DNA of 64,000 nt from Pristiophorus japonicus (Eukaryota), in assembly GCF_044704955.1 (NCBI RefSeq), contig NC_091981.1:178002001-178066000 (forward strand). The letters are read 5' to 3'. The notes below the pieces were generated by a model that ran no database searches, was not told the origin of the DNA, and worked only from the letters and a program-made list of their open reading frames with translations. A program made the translations under genes and the position numbers. Positions within the stretch are counted from its first letter, which is position 1, and each line of letters starts with the position of its first letter. Of this stretch, positions 10,950 to 52,018 are shown piece by piece.

Positions 10950-13900
10950 AGTACTAAAACATCTTGAATGAGATGGATGCAGTAATTGTATCAATTAAAT
11001 ATGTGATTAAAACCAAGACTACTGGAGATTTAAAATTTGAATCACAAGACATAGCGAGGGGGGTAAAAAGGGCGGGGGGCTTTGCGGTACTGATTAAAGA
11101 AACTATTACAGTGGTGAGGAGGGATGATATGTTAGAGGGATCATCAAATGAGGCCATATGGGTCAAATTAAAAAATAAAAAAGGGGCTATCACACTGCTG
11201 GGCATGTATTATAGACCCACAAACAGTGGGAGGGAGATAGAGGAGCAAATATGTAGGCAAATTGCTGCGAAGTCTAAAAACCATAGGGTAGTAATAGTAG
11301 GGGATTTTAACTATCCAAATATTGATTGGAACAAATTTAGTGTGAAGGGTATAGAGGGTGTGGAATTCTTGAAATGCATTCAAGAGAATTTTTTTAGTCG
11401 GTATGTAGCAAGCCCAACTCAAGAGGGGGCGGTCTTGGATTTAGTTTTGGGGAATGAAACTGGGCAGGTTGAAAGGGTATTAGTGGGAGAGCACTTGGGT
11501 GCTAGTGGATTCAGATTCAAGTTGGTTATGGATAAGGACAAGAATAGGCCTGGAATAAAAGTTCTGAATTAGGGAAAAGCTAATTTTGTTAAGTTAAGGA
11601 GTGATTTGACCATAGTGGACTGGAAACAGCTACTTGAAGGTAAATCAGTGTTGGAACAGTGGAAGGCATTCAAGGAGGAGATCCGGCAGGCTCAGGCCAA
11701 ACATGTGCCCTTAAAGAAAAAGGCTGGGAAAAATATTTCTAGAGCCCCCTGGATGTCTAAGGACTTACAGCGGAGGATTAAGAAAAAAAGGGATACTTAT
11801 GTCATATACCAACGGCTAAATACTTTAGAATCTTTAGAGGAATATAGAAAGTTAAGAGACAAAATTAAAAAGGACATTAAGAATGCTAAGAGAGAGCATG
11901 AGAAATTCTTGGCCAGTAAAATTAAGGAAAACCCCAAGATGTTCTATAAATATATTAAGAGTAAGAGGGTAACTAAAGAAAGGGTAGGGCCTATTAGATA
12001 CCATGAGGGTAATCTTTGTGTGGAGGCGGAAGATGTTGGGAAGGTTCTTTATGAATACTTTGCATCTGTTTTCACAAAGGAAAGGGGCAATGCAGATACT
12101 GCTATCGAGGAGGAGTGTGATATTCTGGGTGAAATAAATAAAGTGAGAGAGGAAGTATTAAGGGATTTAGCAGCTTTGAAAGTAGATAACTCCCCAGGCC
12201 TGGATGAAATGCATCCCAGGCTGTTGAGCGAAGTAAAGGAGGAAATAATAGAGGCCTTGACCATCATTTTCCAGTCCTCTTTGGATCTGGGCATGGTGCC
12301 GGAGGATTGGAGGACTGCTAATGTAGTACCCTTGTTTAAGAAGGGAAAAAGGGATAGGCCGAGTAATTACAGGCCGGTCAGCCTAACCTCAGTGGTGGGA
12401 AAATTATTGGAAAAAATCCTGAAAGAAAGGATAAATCTGCATTTGGAAAGCCAAAGATTAATTAGGGGCAGTCAGCACGGATTTGTTAAGGGAAGATCGT
12501 GTTTGTCTAATCTGATTGAATATTTTGAGGAGATAACTAAGAGGGTCGATGAGGGTAGTGCGTACGATGTAGTATATATGGACCTTAACAAGGCTTTTGA
12601 TAAGGTCCCACATGGTAGACTGGTCATGAAGGTTAAAGCCCATGGGATACAGAGCAAAGTAGCAAATTGGATCCAAAATTGGTCTGGAGGTAGGAAGCAA
12701 AGGGTAATGATAGATGGATGTTTCTGTGACTGGAAGGATGTTTCCAATGGGGTTCCCACAGGGCTCAGTACTGGGTCCCTTGCTTTTTGTGGTATATATC
12801 AACGATTTAGATTTGAATATAGGGAGTATGATTAAGAAGTTTGCAGACGACACTAAAATTGGCTATCTGGTTGATAATAAAGAGGAAGGTCATGAGCTGC
12901 AGTAGGATATCAATCTACTGGTCAGATGGGCAGAGTAGTGGCAAATGGAATTTAATTTAGAGAAGTGTGAGGTGATGCACTTTGGGAGGGCTAATAAGGA
13001 AAGGCGGTAGGCCATTTAATAGTGTAGATGAACAAAGGGATCTTGGAGTGCTTGCCCCTGAAAGTAGCAAGCCAGGTGGATAAGATGGTTAAGAAGGCAT
13101 ATAGAATGCTTGCCTTTATTGGCCGAGGCATAGAATATAATAACAGGGAGGTTATGCTTAAATTGTATAATACTTTGGTTAGGCCACAGCTGGAGTACTG
13201 CATGCAGTTCTGATCACCATATTATAGGAAGGACGTGATTGCACGAGAGAGGGTGCAGAAGAGATTTACTAGGATGCTGCCTGGAATGGAGAATCTTAGT
13301 TATGAGGATAGATTGGATAGGCTGGGTTTGTTCTCGTTGGAACAGAGGAGGTTGAGAGGAGACCTCATCGAGGTGTACAAAATAAGGAGGGGCCTGGACA
13401 TAGTGGATAATAAGTGTCTATTTCCATTGGTGGAGGGGTCTATTACGAGGAGGCATAGTTTTAAGGTGGTTGGTGGAAGGTTTAGAGGAGATTTAAGGGG
13501 GGCTTCTTTATGCAGAGGGTTCTGGGGATCTGGAACTCGCTGCCTGGAAGAGTGGTGAATGCAGAAACCCTCATCACTTTTAAGAGATGGTTAGATGAGC
13601 ACTTAAAGTGCAGTAACCTAGAGCTGGTAATTGGGATTAGACTGGATGACCTTTTGTTGGACGGCACAGATATAATGATAAGTATTGCAGGGAATAGAAT
13701 ACGGCCAGGGTGATTTCCTGGACTAGTGTCGATTGCCTGGATGGGTCGGAGAGGAATTTTCCCAGAATTTTTCTCCCTAAATTGGCCTGGGTTTTTATCT
13801 GGTTTTTGCCTCTCCCAGGAGATCACTTGGCTCCAGTAGGGATGGAGTGTAGATGTTTTTCAGTATAAGGAGTGTCGCAGTTGTGTGAGGCGGACTGGTT

Positions 13901-18486: not shown

Positions 18487-19015
18487 TTATCATCATAGGC
18501 AGGCCCTCAAAATCGAGGAAGACTTGCTTCCACTCTAAAAGTGAGTTCTCAGGTGGTTGTACAGACCAATGTGCGAATTATAGTCTCTGTCACAGATGGG
18601 GCAGACAGTGGTTGAAGGAACCGAGACTTTGCTTCGACGTGAGTGTCCTCAATTCCATCCCACAGCATGCTACCAGCCACCATCTCAGCAAAACCCCAGC
18701 CCTGCACGAGGTAGAAAAGGCCACCCATCAACTCAAGAACAACAAGGCATCAGGAGCAGATGGAATCCCTGCCAAGGCACTAAAGTATGATGGAGAAGCA
18801 CTATTATCATGAATGCATGATCTCAGCTCTCTTATCTGGAAGGAGGAGAGCATGCCAAGAGATCTCAGAGATGCCGTAATCGTGACCATCTTCAAAAAAG
18901 GAGACAAGTCCGACTGCGGTAACTACAGAGGAATCTCCCTGCTGTCGGCCACTGGAAAAGTCATTGCAAGAATCCTCCTCAATCATCTTCTCCCTGTGGT
19001 TGAAGAGCTCCTCCC
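18487..19015. mobile_element. RTE-clade LINE fragment with 5' inversion
   Basis: About 18487-18620 is the RTE 3' tail in minus orientation, starting with (cat)n. About 18620-19015 is RT in plus orientation: LKNNKASGADGIP, DAVIVTIFKKGDKSDCGNYRGISLLS. Confidence 0.75.
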
Positions 19016-20830: not shown

Positions 20831-22319
20831 CTCCAGTAAATGTACAGGTGCTAGCTGCATGGATGGAGCTTGCTAACCAAGTTAATGCAGTCATCCAGCT
20901 CCCTCATACTTGGCTGCAAATGAGAAAGGCATTTGTTGGTATCAGGAGCAAGGAGAAAGTGAATGTACTCCCTGTGTTCAAAGTTCTTGTGGAGCCCATG
21001 GCACCAAATTAAATTGTCTATGTTGCACCAACTCTAGTTGAAACTCTCAATCACTCAGTTGAAATTCTCAATCTTTTACTTTTTCCTCTGTTGCCAAATA
21101 AGATAACGAATTATTTCTTTAATTCTTTCTGAACTCAGGATTATTTTATCACTCTTTGTTACTGTTCAAATGTTAAACTTTTAAGTTGTCTTCAGTCTAT
21201 GATTGTTGTCCAGATCCCAGTAAACTTCTCCCACCCTCATGCTTTTTTTTAATACTTTAGATTCAGCGTCACCAGCCATCCATAAGCCACTGGTCAGAAG
21301 CAGACCTTGCGTCCCCTTTAATTCAGGCAGCACCCTTTCTGCCCAATATCTAGGTAAATGGTAGCAATACCCTGAAATCAAAACAGTAACCTTTACTCAA
21401 TATACCAGCTACTGGGCTGTATCACATGCCACTACATGATTCTGCACTCAGAAAGTGGACTGGATCAACTCTCTTACCTGAGGGTCTTTGTCATTCAGGC
21501 ACGGGACCAACAAGTGGTTTTATTTATTTAAGACAGATGATTGAACAGTAAACTGTATAACACCATGAAACATACCTCATTTTACCCTCATGAATATGTA
21601 AAGTAATGCATATACCACTTACTTTCTAAATATAAGCTGTAGGATCCGGTCCTCCTTCCCAACGGCAAAAATTGGACTATTGAATATAAAAACGCAGAAC
21701 TGCGTTACAGCATGCAAAAAGAGCTGGGCAGGAAAGAGTTAATTCTTACATTTACAGCCAAACCATCAGACATCATGAAGGACAGGATATCTGCCATCGA
21801 GCTGAATCACCAGACAATGGCAGCCAAAGAGAGACATTCACACCTTCAATGGTTTCCTGCCTGAAAAGATACAGGAACATTTATATATTCATTTACCATA
21901 AGGGGTTACATTGTTTAAAGAACGTACCCTGGACTGTGGCTCCAGAAAGGCTGGTGTCAAGGTAGGCCTAGACAATGGACCGGACCCTGAGCCACGCAGA
22001 TATGAATACTAATAGAAAACTAACCTTGTAAAGGATCTCATAACTATCATGAACAATGACTCCAGATGGGAAACAATTAGCCATCAAGAGTTCACATTTG
22101 ATGCGGCCATCATATTCAATCTGTTCCAAGATGCAGCCATCATATTCATTTGATGCGGTCATCATGTTAAATCTGTTCTAAGATTGCAAGTGGGTTTTTG
22201 GGATAAAGAAGACCCATTGTCAAAGGCCAGCAGCAGCAGAATACTTTGCTTGAAAGAAAGTGCTATTGCCTGAGGCTTTGCCTGAAAGAAAGTGCTGCCT
22301 CTTTTCATGCATTGCTTTC

Positions 22320-22362
22320 TCGCTTCTCGGCCTTTTGGCTAAGATTGAGTGTAGTATCTGTT
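22320..22362 (+). ncRNA. U2 snRNA 5' fragment (nt 2-44), embedded in the Tx1 5' UTR; not a U2 gene
   Basis: TCGCTTCTCGGCCTTTTGGCTAAGATTGAGTGTAGTATCTGTT versus vertebrate U2 TCGCTTCTCGGCCTTTTGGCTAAGATCAAGTGTAGTATCTGTT is 41/43 identical. It includes stem-loop I and the branch-point recognition sequence GTAGTA. Confidence 0.9.
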
Positions 22363-22604
22363 GATTGGGCATTTATATGCAAATTGACTGATTTGCAGAA
22401 ATTTGGTTTTTCTAGTTTTGCTGGCTCTGGCCTTTGGCTTGAGCCAAGCGCCAATTGGAGAGAAGAGGAAAATCTGCATGTTGACCGACCATTCGGCGGG
22501 CCTGCAGGCCTGTCAGGGGGCGGGCCTCAAGCCCCGGACTGGCGCAACGACAGATTGAGGACTTTGGCCAAAATACACATCGAAAGGAGGAATCTGCAAC
22601 CCGG

Positions 22605-24193
22605 ATGGCGGCCAACTGAGCGGCGAACCAGGGTGTCAGAAACACCATCCGAGTGACGGTAAAGAAAGTGGATGGACAGACAACCATCAACCGGGACCTG
22701 TTCGTGAAGAAAATCCTGCTGGGAACATGTGGCATGAAAGTCGCCGACATCTTCGCCTTCCGAAGAGAGGTTATTTCGATGTGACCTTCAGAACCGTCGC
22801 CCTCTGCCTGAAGTTCCTCAAGGGTTTGAAGGAGGCCAGTGAACCGCTGCATTCAGTGCTAACTTGGGAGCCACTCTTCACCCTCCCATCGCAGAGAAGA
22901 CGCACTATCACAGTGCAGATGTACAACCCCCACTTCCCGGTCATTGATGTGCTGACTTTCCTCGACAGGTATGTCGATGGGGCAGGAAACAGCAGCGATG
23001 TGAAAGACTTGCACGGGATATGGACCAGAAAACGCCAGATCCAGATCACCATGAAGGTGGACGCCAGCGGAACCATCCTGCACCTCCCCTCCAGCTTTGC
23101 CATCGGAGGAAGTCGGGGCTACATGGTGTACGCTGGCCAACCCAACGTGTGCCGCACCTGTGGGAAGGCAGGCCATGTGGCAGCAAGCTGCAAAACTCTC
23201 ATCTGCCGAAACTGCAACAACCAAGGCCACCAGACAAAGGACTGTAAGGAGACCAAGTGCTGCAACCTCTGTGGTCTGGCTGGGCACCTTTACAAAAACT
23301 GCCCCAAACGCAACTTCAGCTATGCGCAGGCAGCAAAGAACATTGCACCAGAGGAGGAGGAAGCTGAGGAACACAACGCTCCAGAGGAGAGCCACACCCT
23401 CCACCCGACCAACGCCCCCATGAACTCGGAACAAGTCGGCGAGGAAGAGAAGCCTGGCACGGTGAGCTGCGAGACACCAGCAGCCAGCAGCGAACCTCTC
23501 CCCCAGCGCAACGAGTCCAGCAACGAGGAGACAGCAGACGATGAAGCGGGATGGAAGACCATCAAGAAAAAGGCCCGCAAGCGTAAGGACAACAGGCGAG
23601 CAAGGGCCCCTGCGGAAACAACAGGGAAGAGGCGACTACATACCTCGTCAGACAGCAGCGGCGGCAGCTCGTCTGATGAGGAAAGGCGAGATAAAGCCTC
23701 TCACCACCGACACCAAAGCAAGAGGCAACACGCCAACCCACAGCCACAGGCGACCGGGAGCAGTGAAGCGACCAACACAGCCCTGCTCCAGGAACCCGCG
23801 AGCAGCGAAGCGCCCAGCGCACATGAGCTCCGGAACACCGAGAGCGAACCAGCGACCAACGCAGACCAGCTCCGGGAGAACGGGAGCAGCGAAGTGCCCA
23901 GCACACCCCACCTCCAAAATACCGGGAGCGACACAGCGATCGAAGCACACCAGCTCGAGAACGCTGTGACTTATGAAAAGAGGGAACCACCAACACCAGG
24001 CGAGGACAGTGGAGAGGACATATCGGACTTTATCGCAACACTAGAGCATTCCCCTGGTCGAAACACTCCCACGGCAGAGGATGACGAGCACACCAGCCCA
24101 GGTGAAGTAGACTTTTATTGTAATCGCCTATATATTCCGGAACCGGCCACTAGGCAGACCTCAGACTTAAAGGACGATTTACTTGAAGTGTAA
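22605..24193 (+). pseudogene. Tx1 ORF1 (ZCCHC3-like gag/zinc-knuckle protein), disrupted
   Basis: ATG at 22605 gives MAAN*AANQGVRNTIRVTVKK...DIFAF. A frameshift near 22770 leads into PKRGYFDVTF...CRTCGKAGHVAASC, CRNCNNQGHQTKDC, CNLCGLAGHLYKNC. TAA at 24191-24193. Confidence 0.85.
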
Positions 24194-27100
24194 TGTTTGT
24201 AACTGTAAACAGTAACGTTAAAATGGATTTAAAAATTGCTACTATTAACGTGCGTAGCGTAAAATCTACTACGCGATGTGTTTCCACCTTGGGGTACCTC
24301 GCCAAGGTCAAAGCGGACCTGCTTTTCTTGCAGGAGTGCGGTCTGCCGTACTTTAGCAGTTACCGGCAGTGGTCACGATGGTGGACCTATGGACCATCCA
24401 TATGGTCAGGAGGCAACGACAGCCGGGCTTCCGGCCTGGGCATTCTGCTGCGGGGAGGCCACTTCACCATCACCGAAGTTAAGGAGGTGGTGGGCGGCCG
24501 CCTCCTCGTAGCAGACATAATGTACAAAAACTCCCCTCTCAGGTTAATTAATGTTTACGCCCCAGTTCACAAGAACGAGAGGCTGGCCCTTTTCCAGCAG
24601 CTCCCAATGCTACTGGCAACATCCAGGCCGGTCATTCTGTGCGGTGACTTCAACTGCATCATCGATGCGGCTGGACGATCCAGCAGAGCCGACGGCAAAC
24701 TGGACGCCACGTCCAAACTCCTGATGGATGCGGTAAAAGATGCCAAGCTGTGCGACGTCTTCAGCAACCCTGCAGACGGAGCACCGCTCAGATACACCTG
24801 GTCGAGACCAGACGGGTCCGCCCGTCCCAGAATAGACTTCCTGTTTGTGTCCCACACGCTCAAGGTCAGATCCACCGACGTCACGCCGGTGTTCTTCTCT
24901 GACCACTGCCTCCTACTGGCCGACTGTCGCCCACAGGAAAACCAGAAAGTTGGCAGAGGGATATGGAAGCTGAACGTGAAACTGTTGACTCTGGAAAACG
25001 TTGAGGAACTCAAGAGGGATTACAAAGGTTGGAGAACCGTAAAACCCCTCTGCAATTCCCCGATGCACTGGTGGGAAACAATCAAGACGAACATCAAGAG
25101 GTTCTTCATCCTCAAAGGTCTTCAGCAGGCGAGAGGGAGACAGAGGGAATTGTCCCAACTCCAGACGAATATGCAAAACCTGCTCCTGCTTCAGTCGATG
25201 GGGGTCGACGTCGGGGAGGAACTCGAAGAGGTGAAGGGCCAGCAAGCCTCGCTCTTTGCCTCAGAGTCCTCCAAGATCACCTTCCGCTCCAGAGTCCGCT
25301 CCGTCGAGCAGGACGAGACGTGTTCGCGTTTCTTCTTCCAAAAGGTACACAGGGGGAGCTCTGTGATCACCAGCCTAAAGGAAGAAGACGGTTCTGTGAC
25401 GTCTTCGCAGCCTGACATGCAGAGGATCAGCAAATCCTTCTATGCCAGGCTGTACAACGTCAAGCCCACAGACCGCGCGGCCTCCCATTCTTTCCTGTCG
25501 TCTATTTCGGAGGTCTTAGAAGACAGCAAGCGGGAGAGTCTGGACCACCCGCTAACTCTGACCGAGCTGACAAAGGCCGTCCGGTCCTTCGAGACGAATA
25601 AAACTCCCGGAAGCGACAGCTTACCGGTCGAGTTGTACTCGGCTCTGTGGGACTGGATAGGCCCAGACCTGCTGGAAGTATACGGAGGTATGCTTCTGGC
25701 CGGCAGCATGTCAGAATCGATGAGGAAAGGCATCATCACCCTCATCTACAAGCAGAAGGGGGAGAGGGAGGAAATCAAAAACTGACGGCCCATTTCGCTG
25801 CTCAATGTGGACTACAAGATCCTGTCAAAGGTCATCGCCAACAGGGTCAAGTCTGCTCTTGAGCTGGTGATTCACCCGGACCAGACCTGCGCTGTCCCTG
25901 GCAGGAAGATCTCTGATAGCCTCGCGCTACTCAGGGATACGATTGTCTACGTGCGGGACAGGAGGGTGGACACCTGCTTAATCAGCTTAGACCAGGAGAA
26001 AGCCTTTGACAGGATATCGCACACGTATCTGATGGACGTGCTCTCCAAAATGGGGTTTGGGGAGGGTATCCGAAATTGGGTCAAACTGCTCTACACAGAC
26101 ATCAGTAGTGCAGTCCTAATCAACGGGTGGGAAACTCAAAGCTTTCCAATCAGATCTGGAGTCAGGCAAGGCTGCCCTCTCTCGGCTGTCTTGTTTGTGT
26201 GTTGTATCGAGCCCTTTGCCGAGTCCATCAGGAAGGATGCGGGCACTGGAGGGGTGACGATCCCAGGCAGCGGAGGTGCTCAGGTCAAGACCTCCCTATA
26301 CATGGACAACGTCGCCGTTTTTTGCTCGGATCCGCAGTCGGTCCGCAGATTGCTCACAATCTGCGACCAGTTTGAACTGGCCTCGGGAGCAAAGGTCAAT
26401 CGCAGCAAGAGCGAGGCTATGCTCTTTGGCAACTGGACCAACTGAGCCTTCATTCCCTTCACCGTCAAGCCAGATTTCCTGAAGGTGTTGGGAATATGGT
26501 TTGGAGTGGATGGGGCGTGCGCCAAAAACTAGGACGAGCGTATCGCCAAGGTCAAACAAAAACTGGGATGGTGGAAGATGCGCTTCCTCTCCATGGCAGG
26601 AAAGAACCTGGTCATCAGGAGTGAGGTGCTCTCGGGATTGCTGCACGTGGCACAGGTCTGGCCCATCCCTCGCTCCTGTGCCGCGGCAGTCACTCGGGCT
26701 TTCTTCCACTTTGTCTGGAGGTCCAAAATGGACCGTATCCGCAGAGACACAATGTACAAATCTCTGGACAGTGGAGGAAAGGACGCCCCGAACGTGGCCC
26801 TCATCCTGATGGCCACCTTTGTGTGCGGCTGCATCAAGCTGTGCACAGACCCCCAGTACGAAAACACCAAGTGTCACTACGTGCTGAGGTTCTACCTGTC
26901 CCCGGTGTTGCGAAGGATGGGTCTGGCCACGCTGCCGCGAAACGCCCCCATCAGTTGGACCATGCCTGTCCACCTGTCCTTTGTGGAGAAGTTTTTCACA
27001 AAAAACCCCTTTGACCACAAGGCCATAAAACAGTGGTCAGCACGTAAGGTCCTGGACGCCCTACGAAAGGAAAGGGTAGACCCTGTCGGGTGGTTCCCTG

Positions 27101-27627
27101 AGCGGACTGTCGAACTTATTTGGCAGAACGTCTCATCACCAGAGCTTTCACACAAGCACCAAGACGTAGCTTGGTTGGTGGTGAGGAGGGCCTTACCTGT
27201 CAGAGCGTTCATGCACAGCCGACATATCATCAATATGGCACGCTGCCCCCGAGTCGGCTGCGGGGCGGATGAGACTGTCACCCATCTCTTTCAGGATTGC
27301 GCCTTCACAAGGCAGGTTTGGAAAGAGGTGCAGTGGTTGCTGTCGAGGTTCATCCCAAGCAGCTCCGTAACACAGGACTCTGTGCTCTACGGGCTGTTCC
27401 CAGGGACACACACCGAGACAGACATCACCTGCTGCTGGAGGGCCATCAACTCGGTCAAAGACGCTCTTTGGTCTTGCCGAAACTTGCTGGTTCTCCAGAG
27501 CAAGGAGATGTTCACGTCTGCGTGTTGCAGACTGGCGCAATCCAAGATCCAGGATTACGGGCTGAGGGACGCACTTAAAATTGGTGCAGTCGCCGCAAAG
27601 GCACGGTGGGGAAGGGCCACAGTTTAA
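24193..27627 (+). pseudogene. Tx1 ORF2 (APE endonuclease, RT, C-terminal zinc finger) with three in-frame stops
   Basis: Motifs KIATINVR, LFLQE, GDFNC, RIDF, SDHC, KN*RPISLLNVDYKILSK, LDQEKAFD, GVRQGCPLS, LYMDN and CPRVGC...ETVTHLFQDC. Stops fall at 25783, 26443 and 26530, all in one frame. Alternative start at 24223. Confidence 0.9.
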
Positions 27628-28519
27628 AGCCCTTCTGCCACGGAAAACCCGGGGACAGGAATCAGTACAAAACCCCCCTCGGGCTGTATTTGTAATTTAT
27701 TTTTTGTGTACATGGAGCACCATGATCTGTAAACACCTATGTAGTGCCATGTACAATGCAAGGTCTGTTGCGAAATGCTTGTTGAAAAGAAAAAAAAAAT
27801 GGAAATGTACCGTCACCCATTCCGTGTACTGTATAGTGACACATGAAATGTAATTTGTTTGCATGTACTACAAGGTATCCCGCATTGGACCGAGTTGCAC
27901 TTGAACTGGAAAACAAGGAAATGTAACGAACGGAACTGCCGTCAGCACCCAAATAATAGTGTATGGGAATGCTGACCGCAGCTAAAAGTATTGAAATGCC
28001 TTTGAATGTACTGTACAGATTTTTTTTATGAATAAAGTATATTTTGAAATATTTTTTAAAAAGCAGCAGAACACAGCAGTACAGAAGCAGACAGCCAGCC
28101 AGTCTTCGGGACACCAGCTGCAACCAAGAAAAGGGCGTATAATCGATTTCAGAATTGGTGATTGTATGTTTGTTCCAGCCAAATCATAGAAGGGTTTTGT
28201 GATTGGGTTTGGGTAACTTTATATGTAACAGTCAAGTTGCGTACGAGTTTAATTTTGTCAAGTTGTGCCGATGCAAATTACCTTTTCGTAAGGGTTTGTT
28301 AGTCCCACATAGCTCGTAGTGATTTATACTAGGGAGGTAGTGTGTGTACGTTCAATAAAACGTCCAAATCTTGGTTGAGCCAAAACTCTGTGCCATGTGT
28401 AATTTTGTTCTTATAAAACCTGATGTCAAGAACTGTGTAACGGGGGACTAGGCATGTCGTAACCCTTACCAGGCTTTAAACAGAAGTTGTATAGCCTCAA
28501 TTTGGTTTAGCTTCCATAC

Positions 28520-50574: not shown

Positions 50575-52018
50575 GGACTGGAGGGCAGTAAATGTAACAA
50601 CACTTTTTTTTTTAAAAAGGAGGGAGAGAAAACAGGGAATTATAGACCGGTTAGCTTGACATCAATAGTGGGGAAAATGTTGGAATCAATTATTAAAGAT
50701 GAAATAGCAGCGCATTTGGAAAGCAGTGACAGGATCGGTCCAAGTCAGCATGGATTTATGAAAGGGAAATCATGCTTGACAAATCTTCTGGAATTTTTTG
50801 AGGATGTAACGAGTAGAGTGGGACAAGGGAGAACCAGTGGATGTGGTGTATTTGGACTTTCAAAAGGCTTTTGACAAGGTCCCACACAAGAGATTGGTGT
50901 GCAAAATTAAAGCACATGGTATTGGGGGTAATGTATTGACATGGATAGAGAACTGGTTGGCAGACAGGAAGCAGAGTGTCGGGATAAACGGGTCCTTTTC
51001 AGAATGGCAGGCAGTGACTAGTGGGGTGCCGCAGGGACCACAGCTATTTGCAATATACATCAATGATTTTAGATGAAGGAATTGAGTGTAATATCTCCAA
51101 GTTTGCAGATGACACTAAACTGGGTGGCGGTGAGATGTGAGGAGGATGCTTAAAGGCTGCAGGATTACTTGGACAGGTTAGGTGAGTGGGCAAATGCATG
51201 GCAGATGCAGTATAATGTGGATAAATGTGAGGTTATTCACTCGGGGGCAAAAATACGAAGGCAGAATATTATCTGAATGGCGGCAGATTAGGAAAAGGGG
51301 AGGTGCAACGAGACCTGGGTGTCATGGTTCATCAGTCATTGAAAGCGGTCATGCAGGTACAGCAGGCGGTGAAGGTGGTAAATGGCATGTTGGCCTTCAT
51401 AGCTAGGGGATTTGAGTATAGGAGCAGGGAGGTCTTACTGCAGTTGTACAGAGCCTTGGTGAGGCCTCACCTGGAATATTGTTCAGTTTTGGTCTCCTAA
51501 TCTGAGGAAGGACATTCTTGCTATGGAGGGAGTGCAGCGAAGGTTCACCAGACTGATTCCCGGGATGGTAGGACTGACATATGAGGAGAGACTGGATCGA
51601 CTGGGCCTGTATTCACTGGAATTTTGAAGGATGAGAGGGGATCTCATAGAAAAATATAAAATTCTGACGGGACTGGACAGGTTAGATGCAGGAAGAATGT
51701 TCCCGATGTTGGGGAAGTCCAGAACCAGGGATCACAGTCTAAGGATAAGGGGTAAGCCATTTAGGACCAAGATGAGGAGAAACTTCTTCACTCAGAGTTG
51801 TTAACCTGTGGAATTCTCTACTCCAGAGAGTTGTTGATGCCAGTTCATTGGATATATTTAAAAGGGAGTTAGATATGGCCCTTACGGCTAAAGGGATCAA
51901 GAGGTATGGAGAGAAAGCAGGAAATGGGTACTGAGGTGAATGATCAGCCATGATCTTGTTGAATGGTGGTGCAGGCTCGAGGGTCCGAATGGCCTACTCC
52001 TGCACCTATTTTCTATGA
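50575..52018 (+). mobile_element. 5'-truncated CR1 LINE
   Basis: NYRPVSLTSIVGKMLE, QHGFMKGKSCLTNLLEFF, DVVYLDFQKAFDKVPH; CR1 tail ggcctactcctgcacctattttctatg. Confidence 0.9.

What the first reader, a model, noticed from the sequence alone, without database searches (positions are those of the whole stretch)
22242..28061. Tx1 LINE carrying a U2 snRNA 5' segment inside its own 5' UTR, at a non-U2 site
Seen: the 10-bp TSD AGCAGCAGAA brackets the element. U2 nt 2-44 (41/43 identical, with stem-loop I and branch-point recognition GTAGTA) starts 78 nt inside the left TSD, in sense orientation. The 3' flank is not the rest of U2 (no CTTATCAGTTTAATATCTG). Established: Keno (Tx1 clade) inserts into U2 genes near this position, and crocodilian SINEU elements have U1/U2-derived heads. 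Inference: the U2 piece travels as part of this LINE family and is not a target remnant at this locus. It could be a relic of U2 targeting by a lineage that has relaxed its specificity, a homology arm for 5' integration, or an snRNA-mimic module affecting the element's RNA. I cannot tell whether this family is already catalogued.
Basis: partly seen in the sequence, partly recalled or inferred. Interest (0 to 1): 0.8.

Follow-up and report, generated by a model that had tools for sequence, protein, structure and literature searches.

The report
U2-targeting LINE with two captured leaders
A dead copy of a jumping gene that inserts into U2 spliceosomal RNA genes carries two pieces of host DNA at its front, the start of U2 and a piece of a tRNA-gene array, probably picked up one after the other by using host promoters.

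Summary
In detail: a 10-bp TSD, and U2 nt 2-44 at 41/43, starting 78 nt inside the element. The element is a broken copy of a Keno-type Tx1 LINE. Near-identical sisters with open ORFs (88% identical to it) sit in this genome's U2 gene array at the published Keno site, directly behind the native U2 upstream sequence. Their marked U2 1-44 head also occurs at non-U2 sites, so the head travels with the RNA. The 78-nt leader is new: it is the spacer of a 1.24-kb tRNA-gene tandem array (50/52 identical, plus a partial second copy). Leader-bearing copies pile up at one start, and the family also inserts just downstream of it. Best reading: two nested 5' transductions, first from the U2 promoter and then from a start site in the tRNA-array spacer, in a family that mostly inserts off target (27 of 2,149 tails at the U2 site). 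Transcription was not shown. U2-headed Tx1 families are published (crocodilians), and this scan noted one in another cartilaginous fish. New variant of a known kind.

The parts
22232..22241 (+). Left target-site duplication AGCAGCAGAA
   Evidence: identical to 28062-28071
22242..22264 (+). Partial extra copy of the tRNA-array spacer (spacer +10..+32); same junction as sister copy L002
   Evidence: 20/23 ungapped; BLAST +12..+32 at 95%; L002 = L159
22265..22316 (+). Leader: spacer +1..+52 of the 1.24-kb tRNA-Arg/Met/Ala tandem array on C1; +1 is where leader-bearing copies pile up
   Evidence: 50/52 identical; array; start positions
22320..22362 (+). U2 snRNA nt 2-44 head, i.e. U2 up to the Keno site plus the duplicated nt 38/39-44
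   Evidence: 41/43; Rfam; array junctions
22363..22477 (+). LINE's own 5' UTR, with a reverse CCAAT (22364-22368) and an octamer ATGCAAAT (22377-22384); motif names recalled, function untested
   Evidence: sequence; shared by both subfamilies
22478..24193 (+). ORF1 (ZCCHC3-type RNA-binding domain, CCHC knuckles), frameshifted near 22760
24223..27627 (+). ORF2 (APE endonuclease, RT, zf-RVT) with in-frame stops; 91% amino-acid identity to the open ORF2 of a U2-resident copy
27628..28061 (+). 3' UTR, AATAAA at 28031-28036 and a short A/T tail
   Evidence: shared 3' end
28062..28071 (+). Right target-site duplication AGCAGCAGAA

Best explanation
This is a dead copy of a Keno-type Tx1 LINE whose 5' end records two nested 5' transductions. 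Step 1 (insertion shown, transcription inferred): copies insert at U2 nt 38/39 with a 6-7-nt duplication, so they lie behind U2 1-44 and the U2 promoter. The co-transcript starts at U2 +1 and the head is reverse-transcribed with the element. Step 2 (sequence origin shown, mechanism inferred): a U2-headed copy inserted about 62 or 73 nt downstream of a transcription start in the spacer of a tRNA-gene tandem array, and read-through from that start added the spacer leader. A descendant inserted again at about +32 of the spacer, which gave the duplicated leader of the window copy. Most progeny land off target. The head rebuilds the U2 target, so new copies insert into the heads of old ones.
For: In 130 kb of the C19 U2 array there are 17 element starts. 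11 follow native U2 upstream sequence plus U2 1-44, 5 follow poly(A)+CCTGTT, and 1 follows a truncated end. 10 copies end in poly(A) plus U2 from nt 38, which matches the published Keno 3' target TCTGTTCTTATCAGTTTAAT. 13 of 16 tested have both ORFs open. The array head carries 2 changes from U2. That marked head is in 10 of the first 30 of 127 junction matches, none with U2 upstream sequence nearby; by eye 8 begin at +4 or later (L162 at +3/+4), one at -1/+1, and one is ambiguous (+3, or -7 with a gap). L072 has genuine U2 1-53, 35 nt of filler, and then the marked head from -1/+1. The leader equals the array spacer at 50/52. Of 31 leader-bearing heads among 50 examined, 9 start exactly at +1, 16 start later, 5 extend by 1-4 nt and 1 by a short match to -19. 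Family copies sit in the spacer itself: L079 with a TSD near +43..+55, and L245/L186 at +36, against about 0.01 expected in a 30-nt window. A paralogous array unit supplies a second leader type (L137, L139). 27 of 2,149 exact tails are at the U2 or head site, against about 1 expected.
Against: No RNA evidence was obtained for either start site. No U2-headed copy with native array sequence upstream was found (0 exact matches), so the postulated source copy in the tRNA array is missing from this assembly or has diverged. In-array insertions number only 2 loci, both 5'-truncated; the other 3 of the 5 matches are ambiguous. 14 of the 27 U2-site tails are in one array and may have been amplified by unequal crossover. 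The 19-mer tail may be shared with related families. Leader junction types are intermingled in the tree (48 of 58 copies used, midpoint root, weak internal support), so the number of independent captures is uncertain. The 30 copies were selected by similarity to the leader.
Confidence: 0.72

Rival explanations
1. Template switching: the RT jumps from the LINE RNA to free U2 snRNA or to a spacer-derived RNA, as proposed for SINEU heads and L1-snRNA chimeras. The heads were then fixed in source copies without promoter capture.
For: Kojima proposes this for SINEU (PMC4494074). Head-to-tail chains of U2-headed SINE, SINE and LINE occur here (L140, L145, L161). The spacer/U2 junction has AGGC microhomology.
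Against: The U2 piece ends exactly at the Keno-site duplication (nt 44) in 24 of 30 heads, and the same junction exists in U2 genes with native upstream sequence. The marked head differs from 64 genuine U2 target stretches counted in the other array loci held, so it did not come from free U2. The family inserts in the spacer at the junction positions.
Confidence: 0.15
2. Autonomous 5' end: after one capture, the leader plus the downstream CCAAT/octamer acts as an internal promoter or RNA-processing signal. Dispersed leader-bearing copies then propagate without any host promoter, which explains their spread.
For: No source copy was found in the array. The 5' boundary at +1 is sharp. CCAAT and octamer motifs lie just 3' of the head.
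Against: Leaderless marked-head copies have the same motifs yet start at the U2 start. The window and L002 leaders track the present array sequence, which suggests renewed capture. Rfam found only tRNA matches in two array loci, no ribozyme.
Confidence: 0.1
3. The U2 head is a selected snRNA-mimic module that acts on the element's RNA (splicing, export or stability).
For: The head is retained in 24 of 30 copies and covers stem-loop I and the branch-point region.
Against: The youngest, ORF-intact copies have the branch-point recognition hexamer changed. Some leader-bearing copies keep only nt 36-44 (L137, L139, L141) or have lost part of it (L247, L248). Its length is fully explained by the target geometry.
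Confidence: 0.03

Closest known systems
Keno (Tx1 clade, U2 snRNA gene-specific; Kojima and Fujiwara 2004, not read; described in PMC4494074, PMC4640811, PMC6136364)
   Same: APE-type two-ORF LINE; the 3' flank in U2 genes is the published Keno target; tandem insertion at the site.
   Different: Only about 1% of exact tails are at the U2 site. Dispersed copies carry U2 1-44, and the window's subfamily also carries a tRNA-array spacer leader.
Crocodilian Tx1-Mar families with snRNA heads (Tx1-11_Crp with a U2 head; Tx1-2_Crp, Tx1-2B_Crp and Tx1-4_AMi with U1 heads) and SINEU (PMC4494074)
   Same: Keno-related Tx1 LINEs with an snRNA-derived 5' segment outside snRNA genes; recurrent 5' additions; the author suggests transcription from flanking target sequence.
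   Different: Those families target Mariner-N4_AMi and the origin of the head was left to template switching. Here ORF-intact copies still sit in U2 genes, the head can be traced to them, and the outer leader comes from a tRNA array.
R2 (rDNA co-transcription) and SVA-MAST2 5' transduction (as summarised in the PMC4494074 discussion)
   Same: Use of a host promoter and carriage of upstream host sequence.
   Different: A different clade or element class; here two successive host starts are recorded in one 5' end.
Dewa (tRNA tandem-array spacer-specific LINE of teleosts; recalled, seen only in search listings)
   Same: Insertion into a tRNA-array spacer.
   Different: Here it is a weak, spread-out preference (+36 to +73) in a U2-targeting family; relationship to Dewa not tested.
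Weakly specific Utopia families of reptiles (PMC4640811 section 8)
   Same: Same U2 site, with mostly off-target insertion.
   Different: Utopia has a restriction-like endonuclease; this element has an APE.

Membership tests
Tx1-clade LINE | ORF1 with CCHC knuckles; ORF2 with APE, RT and C-terminal zinc motif; poly(A) tail and TSD | tested here: met
Tx1-clade LINE | RT groups with Tx1-clade references | tested here: inconclusive
   Named hits include 'transposon TX1 149 kDa protein' entries at 41-47% over the RT region; no labelled tree was built
Keno | Insertion at U2 nt 38/39 with 3' flank TCTGTTCTTATCAGTTTAAT | tested here: met
   Met for the family: 10 copies in the C19 array, L072 and C14; target as quoted in PMC6136364. 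Not true of the window copy itself
Keno | APE-type, not restriction-like, endonuclease | tested here: met
   PF03372; distinction from Utopia
Keno | Strict specificity for U2 genes | tested here: not met
   27 of 2,149 exact tails; 10 of 100 listed array-type tails; 0 of 30 read and 0 of 100 listed 7-T-type tails
Keno | Phylogenetic clustering with named Keno elements | tested here: inconclusive
   BAD04856 (Takifugu) is 51% identical over the RT region and 39% over ORF2. That it is the fugu Keno is only an inference from accession neighbourhood. Repbase was not available
Tx1-Mar | Preference for Mariner-N4_AMi-like transposons | not tested
   No Mariner reference was held and the flanks were not classified
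SINEU | Short non-coding retroposon with an snRNA head | tested here: not met
   5.8-kb two-ORF LINE; a separate SINEU-like element exists in this genome

The most novel reading that the evidence does not exclude
A Keno lineage hops between host promoters and is caught in a target switch. From U2 genes it moved to an unannotated transcription start in a tRNA-array spacer of roughly 1,900 units. Each captured leader then acts as a homology arm that favours re-insertion at the place it came from, while the endonuclease loop next to the active site changed in step: 5 of the 10 majority differences in the endonuclease fall in 5 consecutive residues. This would be a readable intermediate in how Tx1 elements change targets and how snRNA-headed retroposons get transcribed.
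Probability: 0.3. Interest if true: 0.72.

Novelty: new variant of a known kind. Interest (0 to 1): 0.5.

Why it matters
How snRNA-headed retroposons are transcribed without an internal promoter is named as an open question in PMC4494074. This genome holds ORF-intact source-like copies behind the U2 promoter, a marked head that can be traced to dispersed progeny, and a second captured leader from a different multicopy locus. That makes promoter borrowing and head-assisted targeting directly testable. It also points to a possible unannotated start site in a large tRNA array. The U2 head on its own is not new.

Tried and rejected
1) Leader as U2-gene 5' flank: considered because of the shared AGGCT. 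Dropped once the leader matched the tRNA-array spacer at 50/52; only a 4-5-nt microhomology remains. 2) A second degenerate U2 copy near 22421-22453: 220 of 2,000 shuffles score as high, so rejected. 3) Ribozyme in the leader: no such Rfam match at E up to 1 in two array loci. 4) Source copy with array upstream sequence plus U2 head: 0 exact matches. 5) RNA runs for the array unit: none was listed; this is no evidence either way, and no reads were laid. 6) Empty-site test: no second copy of the left flank among the window and 248 loci. 7) Naming the closest fish proteins as Keno: not confirmed. 8) Tree of 5' bodies: separates U2-resident and marked-head copies from leader-bearing ones (support 1.0) but gives no order of events and does not resolve junction types; 10 of 58 copies were left out for aligning under 900 nt in one piece. 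9) Literature: searches found no paper on a U2-headed Tx1 family with a tRNA-spacer leader. The library lacks most subscription journals, and Repbase and Dfam were not available.

Full report
Observation. The window lies at G000:C5:178,002,001-178,066,000 in a 5.9-Gb genome; I take it for a cartilaginous fish from recall of its repeats, not from any call. The TSD (22232-22241 and 28062-28071) and the U2 piece (22320-22362, 41/43 to the genome's own U2 gene) are as described. The body has the Tx1-type layout and is dead: ORF1 is frameshifted near 22760 and ORF2 has stops.

The head is a family trait. A search with the 5' 239 nt gave 592 candidates; 40 were scored and all 40 span the U2 piece. 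That set is biased towards the query. A less biased exact 27-mer at the head/body junction gave 127 matches. Of the first 30 by position, 24 carry at least 26 nt of U2, 3 follow a poly(A) directly, and 3 have another leader with only U2 36-44. Of 20 long stretches fetched, 13 held full-length copies; 8 of these have clear adjacent TSDs of different sequence, 2 are doubtful and 3 show none. Ten such copies are 89-94% identical to each other over 45 pairs.

The family is Keno-type. The genome has U2 genes in a 765-bp tandem array and in larger repeats. In 130 kb of the C19 array there are 17 element starts: 11 behind native U2 upstream sequence plus U2 1-44, 5 behind poly(A)+CCTGTT, and 1 behind a truncated end. 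Ten end in poly(A) plus U2 from nt 38. The published Keno 3' target is TCTGTTCTTATCAGTTTAAT (PMC6136364, passages), and Utopia shares that flank, starting at nt 39 (PMC4640811, section 6). 13 of 16 tested copies have ORF1 (581-584 codons, stop to stop) and ORF2 (1,147) open; ten compared are 98.3-99.9% identical to one another and about 88% to the window. U2 1-44 is therefore exactly what lies upstream of a Keno insertion with a 6-7-nt duplication.

The head moves through the RNA. The array head differs from U2 at two positions, while 64 genuine target stretches were counted in seven other array loci. The marked head is in 10 of the 30 unbiased copies; none of the 15 copies tested, these 10 included, has U2 upstream sequence within 800 nt. 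They begin at or after the U2 start, one at -1/+1 and one ambiguous. In L072 a genuine U2 1-53, 35 nt of filler and then the marked head from -1/+1 precede an ORF-intact body, and U2 resumes at nt 38. This is what a co-transcript from the U2 promoter predicts. Transcription itself is inferred.

Specificity is weak. 27 of 2,149 exact 19-mer tails are followed by poly(A) and the U2 or head site, against about 1 by chance; 14 of the 27 are in the one C19 array. For the array-type tail, 10 of 100 listed (105 in all) are at the site (coordinates compared by eye). For a tail like the window's (7-T form taken from sister loci; the window has 8 T and is not counted) there are 176 matches: 0 of 30 read and 0 of 100 listed are at the site. 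Against a clean split, a truncated copy with a 7-T tail does sit at a U2 nt-38 site in the C9 repeats.

The leader. A 21-mer of the leader has 1,961 exact matches; 99 of the 100 listed form a run with 1,240-bp spacing on C1. The unit holds tRNA-Arg(ACG), tRNA-Met(CAT) (one copy read as Leu) and tRNA-Ala(TGC). Window 22265-22316 equals spacer +1..+52 (50/52) and 22242-22264 equals +10..+32 (20/23). Of 50 distinct heads examined (one more had no anchor), 31 carry spacer sequence: 9 start at +1, 16 later, 5 extend by 1-4 nt (2 of them because of the duplicated leader) and 1 by a short match lying in an unrelated flank. Common junctions to U2 are at +62, through AGGC microhomology, and at +73; the +49 to +52 forms, the window's included, may be deletions of these. 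A paralogous array unit supplies a second leader. The family inserts in this spacer: L079 has array sequence on both sides and a TSD near +43..+55, and two truncated copies sit at +36 between the two unit types (L245, L186). Three further matches are followed by the leader of another copy and are ambiguous. The 240 nt upstream of +1 has CpG o/e 0.81 against 0.41 for the window and is visibly conserved between the two unit types, which is compatible with a promoter but does not show one. No U2-headed copy with the array's upstream sequence was found.

Mechanism. Shown: the origin of both 5' pieces, insertion at the U2 site, insertion in the spacer, carriage of the marked head, and insertion into heads of earlier copies. 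Inferred: initiation at U2 +1 and at spacer +1; the order U2 head first and spacer second (from the nesting; the midpoint-rooted tree of 48 of 58 copies gives no order); and any homology-arm role. Between an intact U2-resident ORF2 and 18 leader-type copies, 10 of 233 endonuclease positions differ by majority, 5 of them in residues 126-130 just after the NVYA motif. That this loop contacts DNA is recalled from L1 endonuclease work and was not tested.

What is known. PMC4494074 (main text read, parts 1-4 of 5; figures and supplements not seen, and these may show whether Tx1-11_Crp has an outer leader) reports Keno-related crocodilian Tx1 families with U1 or U2 heads and recurrent 5' additions, and leaves their transcription open. 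PMC4640811 (sections 6 and 8 and passages) reports weak U2 specificity for reptile Utopia. PMC6136364, PMC4746887, PMC4889948, PMC2684134 and PMC5381603 were seen as passages only. Kojima and Fujiwara 2004 was not seen. The searches found no report of a tRNA-spacer leader. Earlier notes of this scan describe a U2-headed Keno-like LINE in another cartilaginous fish (e1-7789567) and a U2-headed chimera carrying a tRNA array (e1-8025441); neither was checked here.

Verdict. The feature is real. It works like Keno, meets Keno's site and endonuclease criteria at family level and fails strict specificity, so it is best called a relaxed Keno-type family. The U2 head is known in kind; the traceable two-step capture is the new part. 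Interest 0.5.

Noticed in passing
C19 array (L167-L179), L180-L183, L107-L129: A U2-derived short retroposon of about 340 nt (U2 1-28, unique middle, U2 153-186, a second U2 7-29-like piece, poly(A)) sits at the same U2 nt-38 site and in dispersed chains. It is SINEU-like and probably mobilised by this LINE; PMC4494074 found SINEU only in crocodilians.
   Followed up: partly
L089, L244, L130-L136: A second U2-derived short element: near-full U2 with a small internal deletion, a repeat of U2 7-38, a tail and poly(A). It is itself a target for the LINE and the SINE.
   Followed up: partly
G000:C19:69.62-69.72 Mb: Part of the U2 array is saturated: only one undisrupted U2 target in 130 kb, whereas contigs C1003, C1832 and C1868 hold mostly intact U2 genes.
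   Followed up: partly
G000:C1 from 475.6 Mb (L186-L214): A tRNA-Arg/Met/Ala array with a 1.24-kb unit and roughly 1,900 units by inference; several tRNA copies look degenerate; a diverged paralogous unit lies next to it (L245).
   Followed up: partly
L140, L145, L156, L158, L161, L162: Head-to-tail chains of U2-headed SINE(s) followed by the LINE, most units starting at U2 +1 to +12; suggests RT jumping between U2-headed RNAs.
   Followed up: no
L223, L226, L230, L240; L010, L011: 4 of 30 tails are followed within 200 nt by other family sequence, and some heads abut ORF2 sequence: frequent self-insertion or inversion.
   Followed up: no
window 11984-12808, 18645-19013, 50602-51070: Other degraded RT-like fragments, 21-31% identical to this ORF2.
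   Followed up: no
window 21800-22241 and 28072-28500: The flanks look like one interrupted LTR-like sequence (impression from reading, not tested).
   Followed up: no
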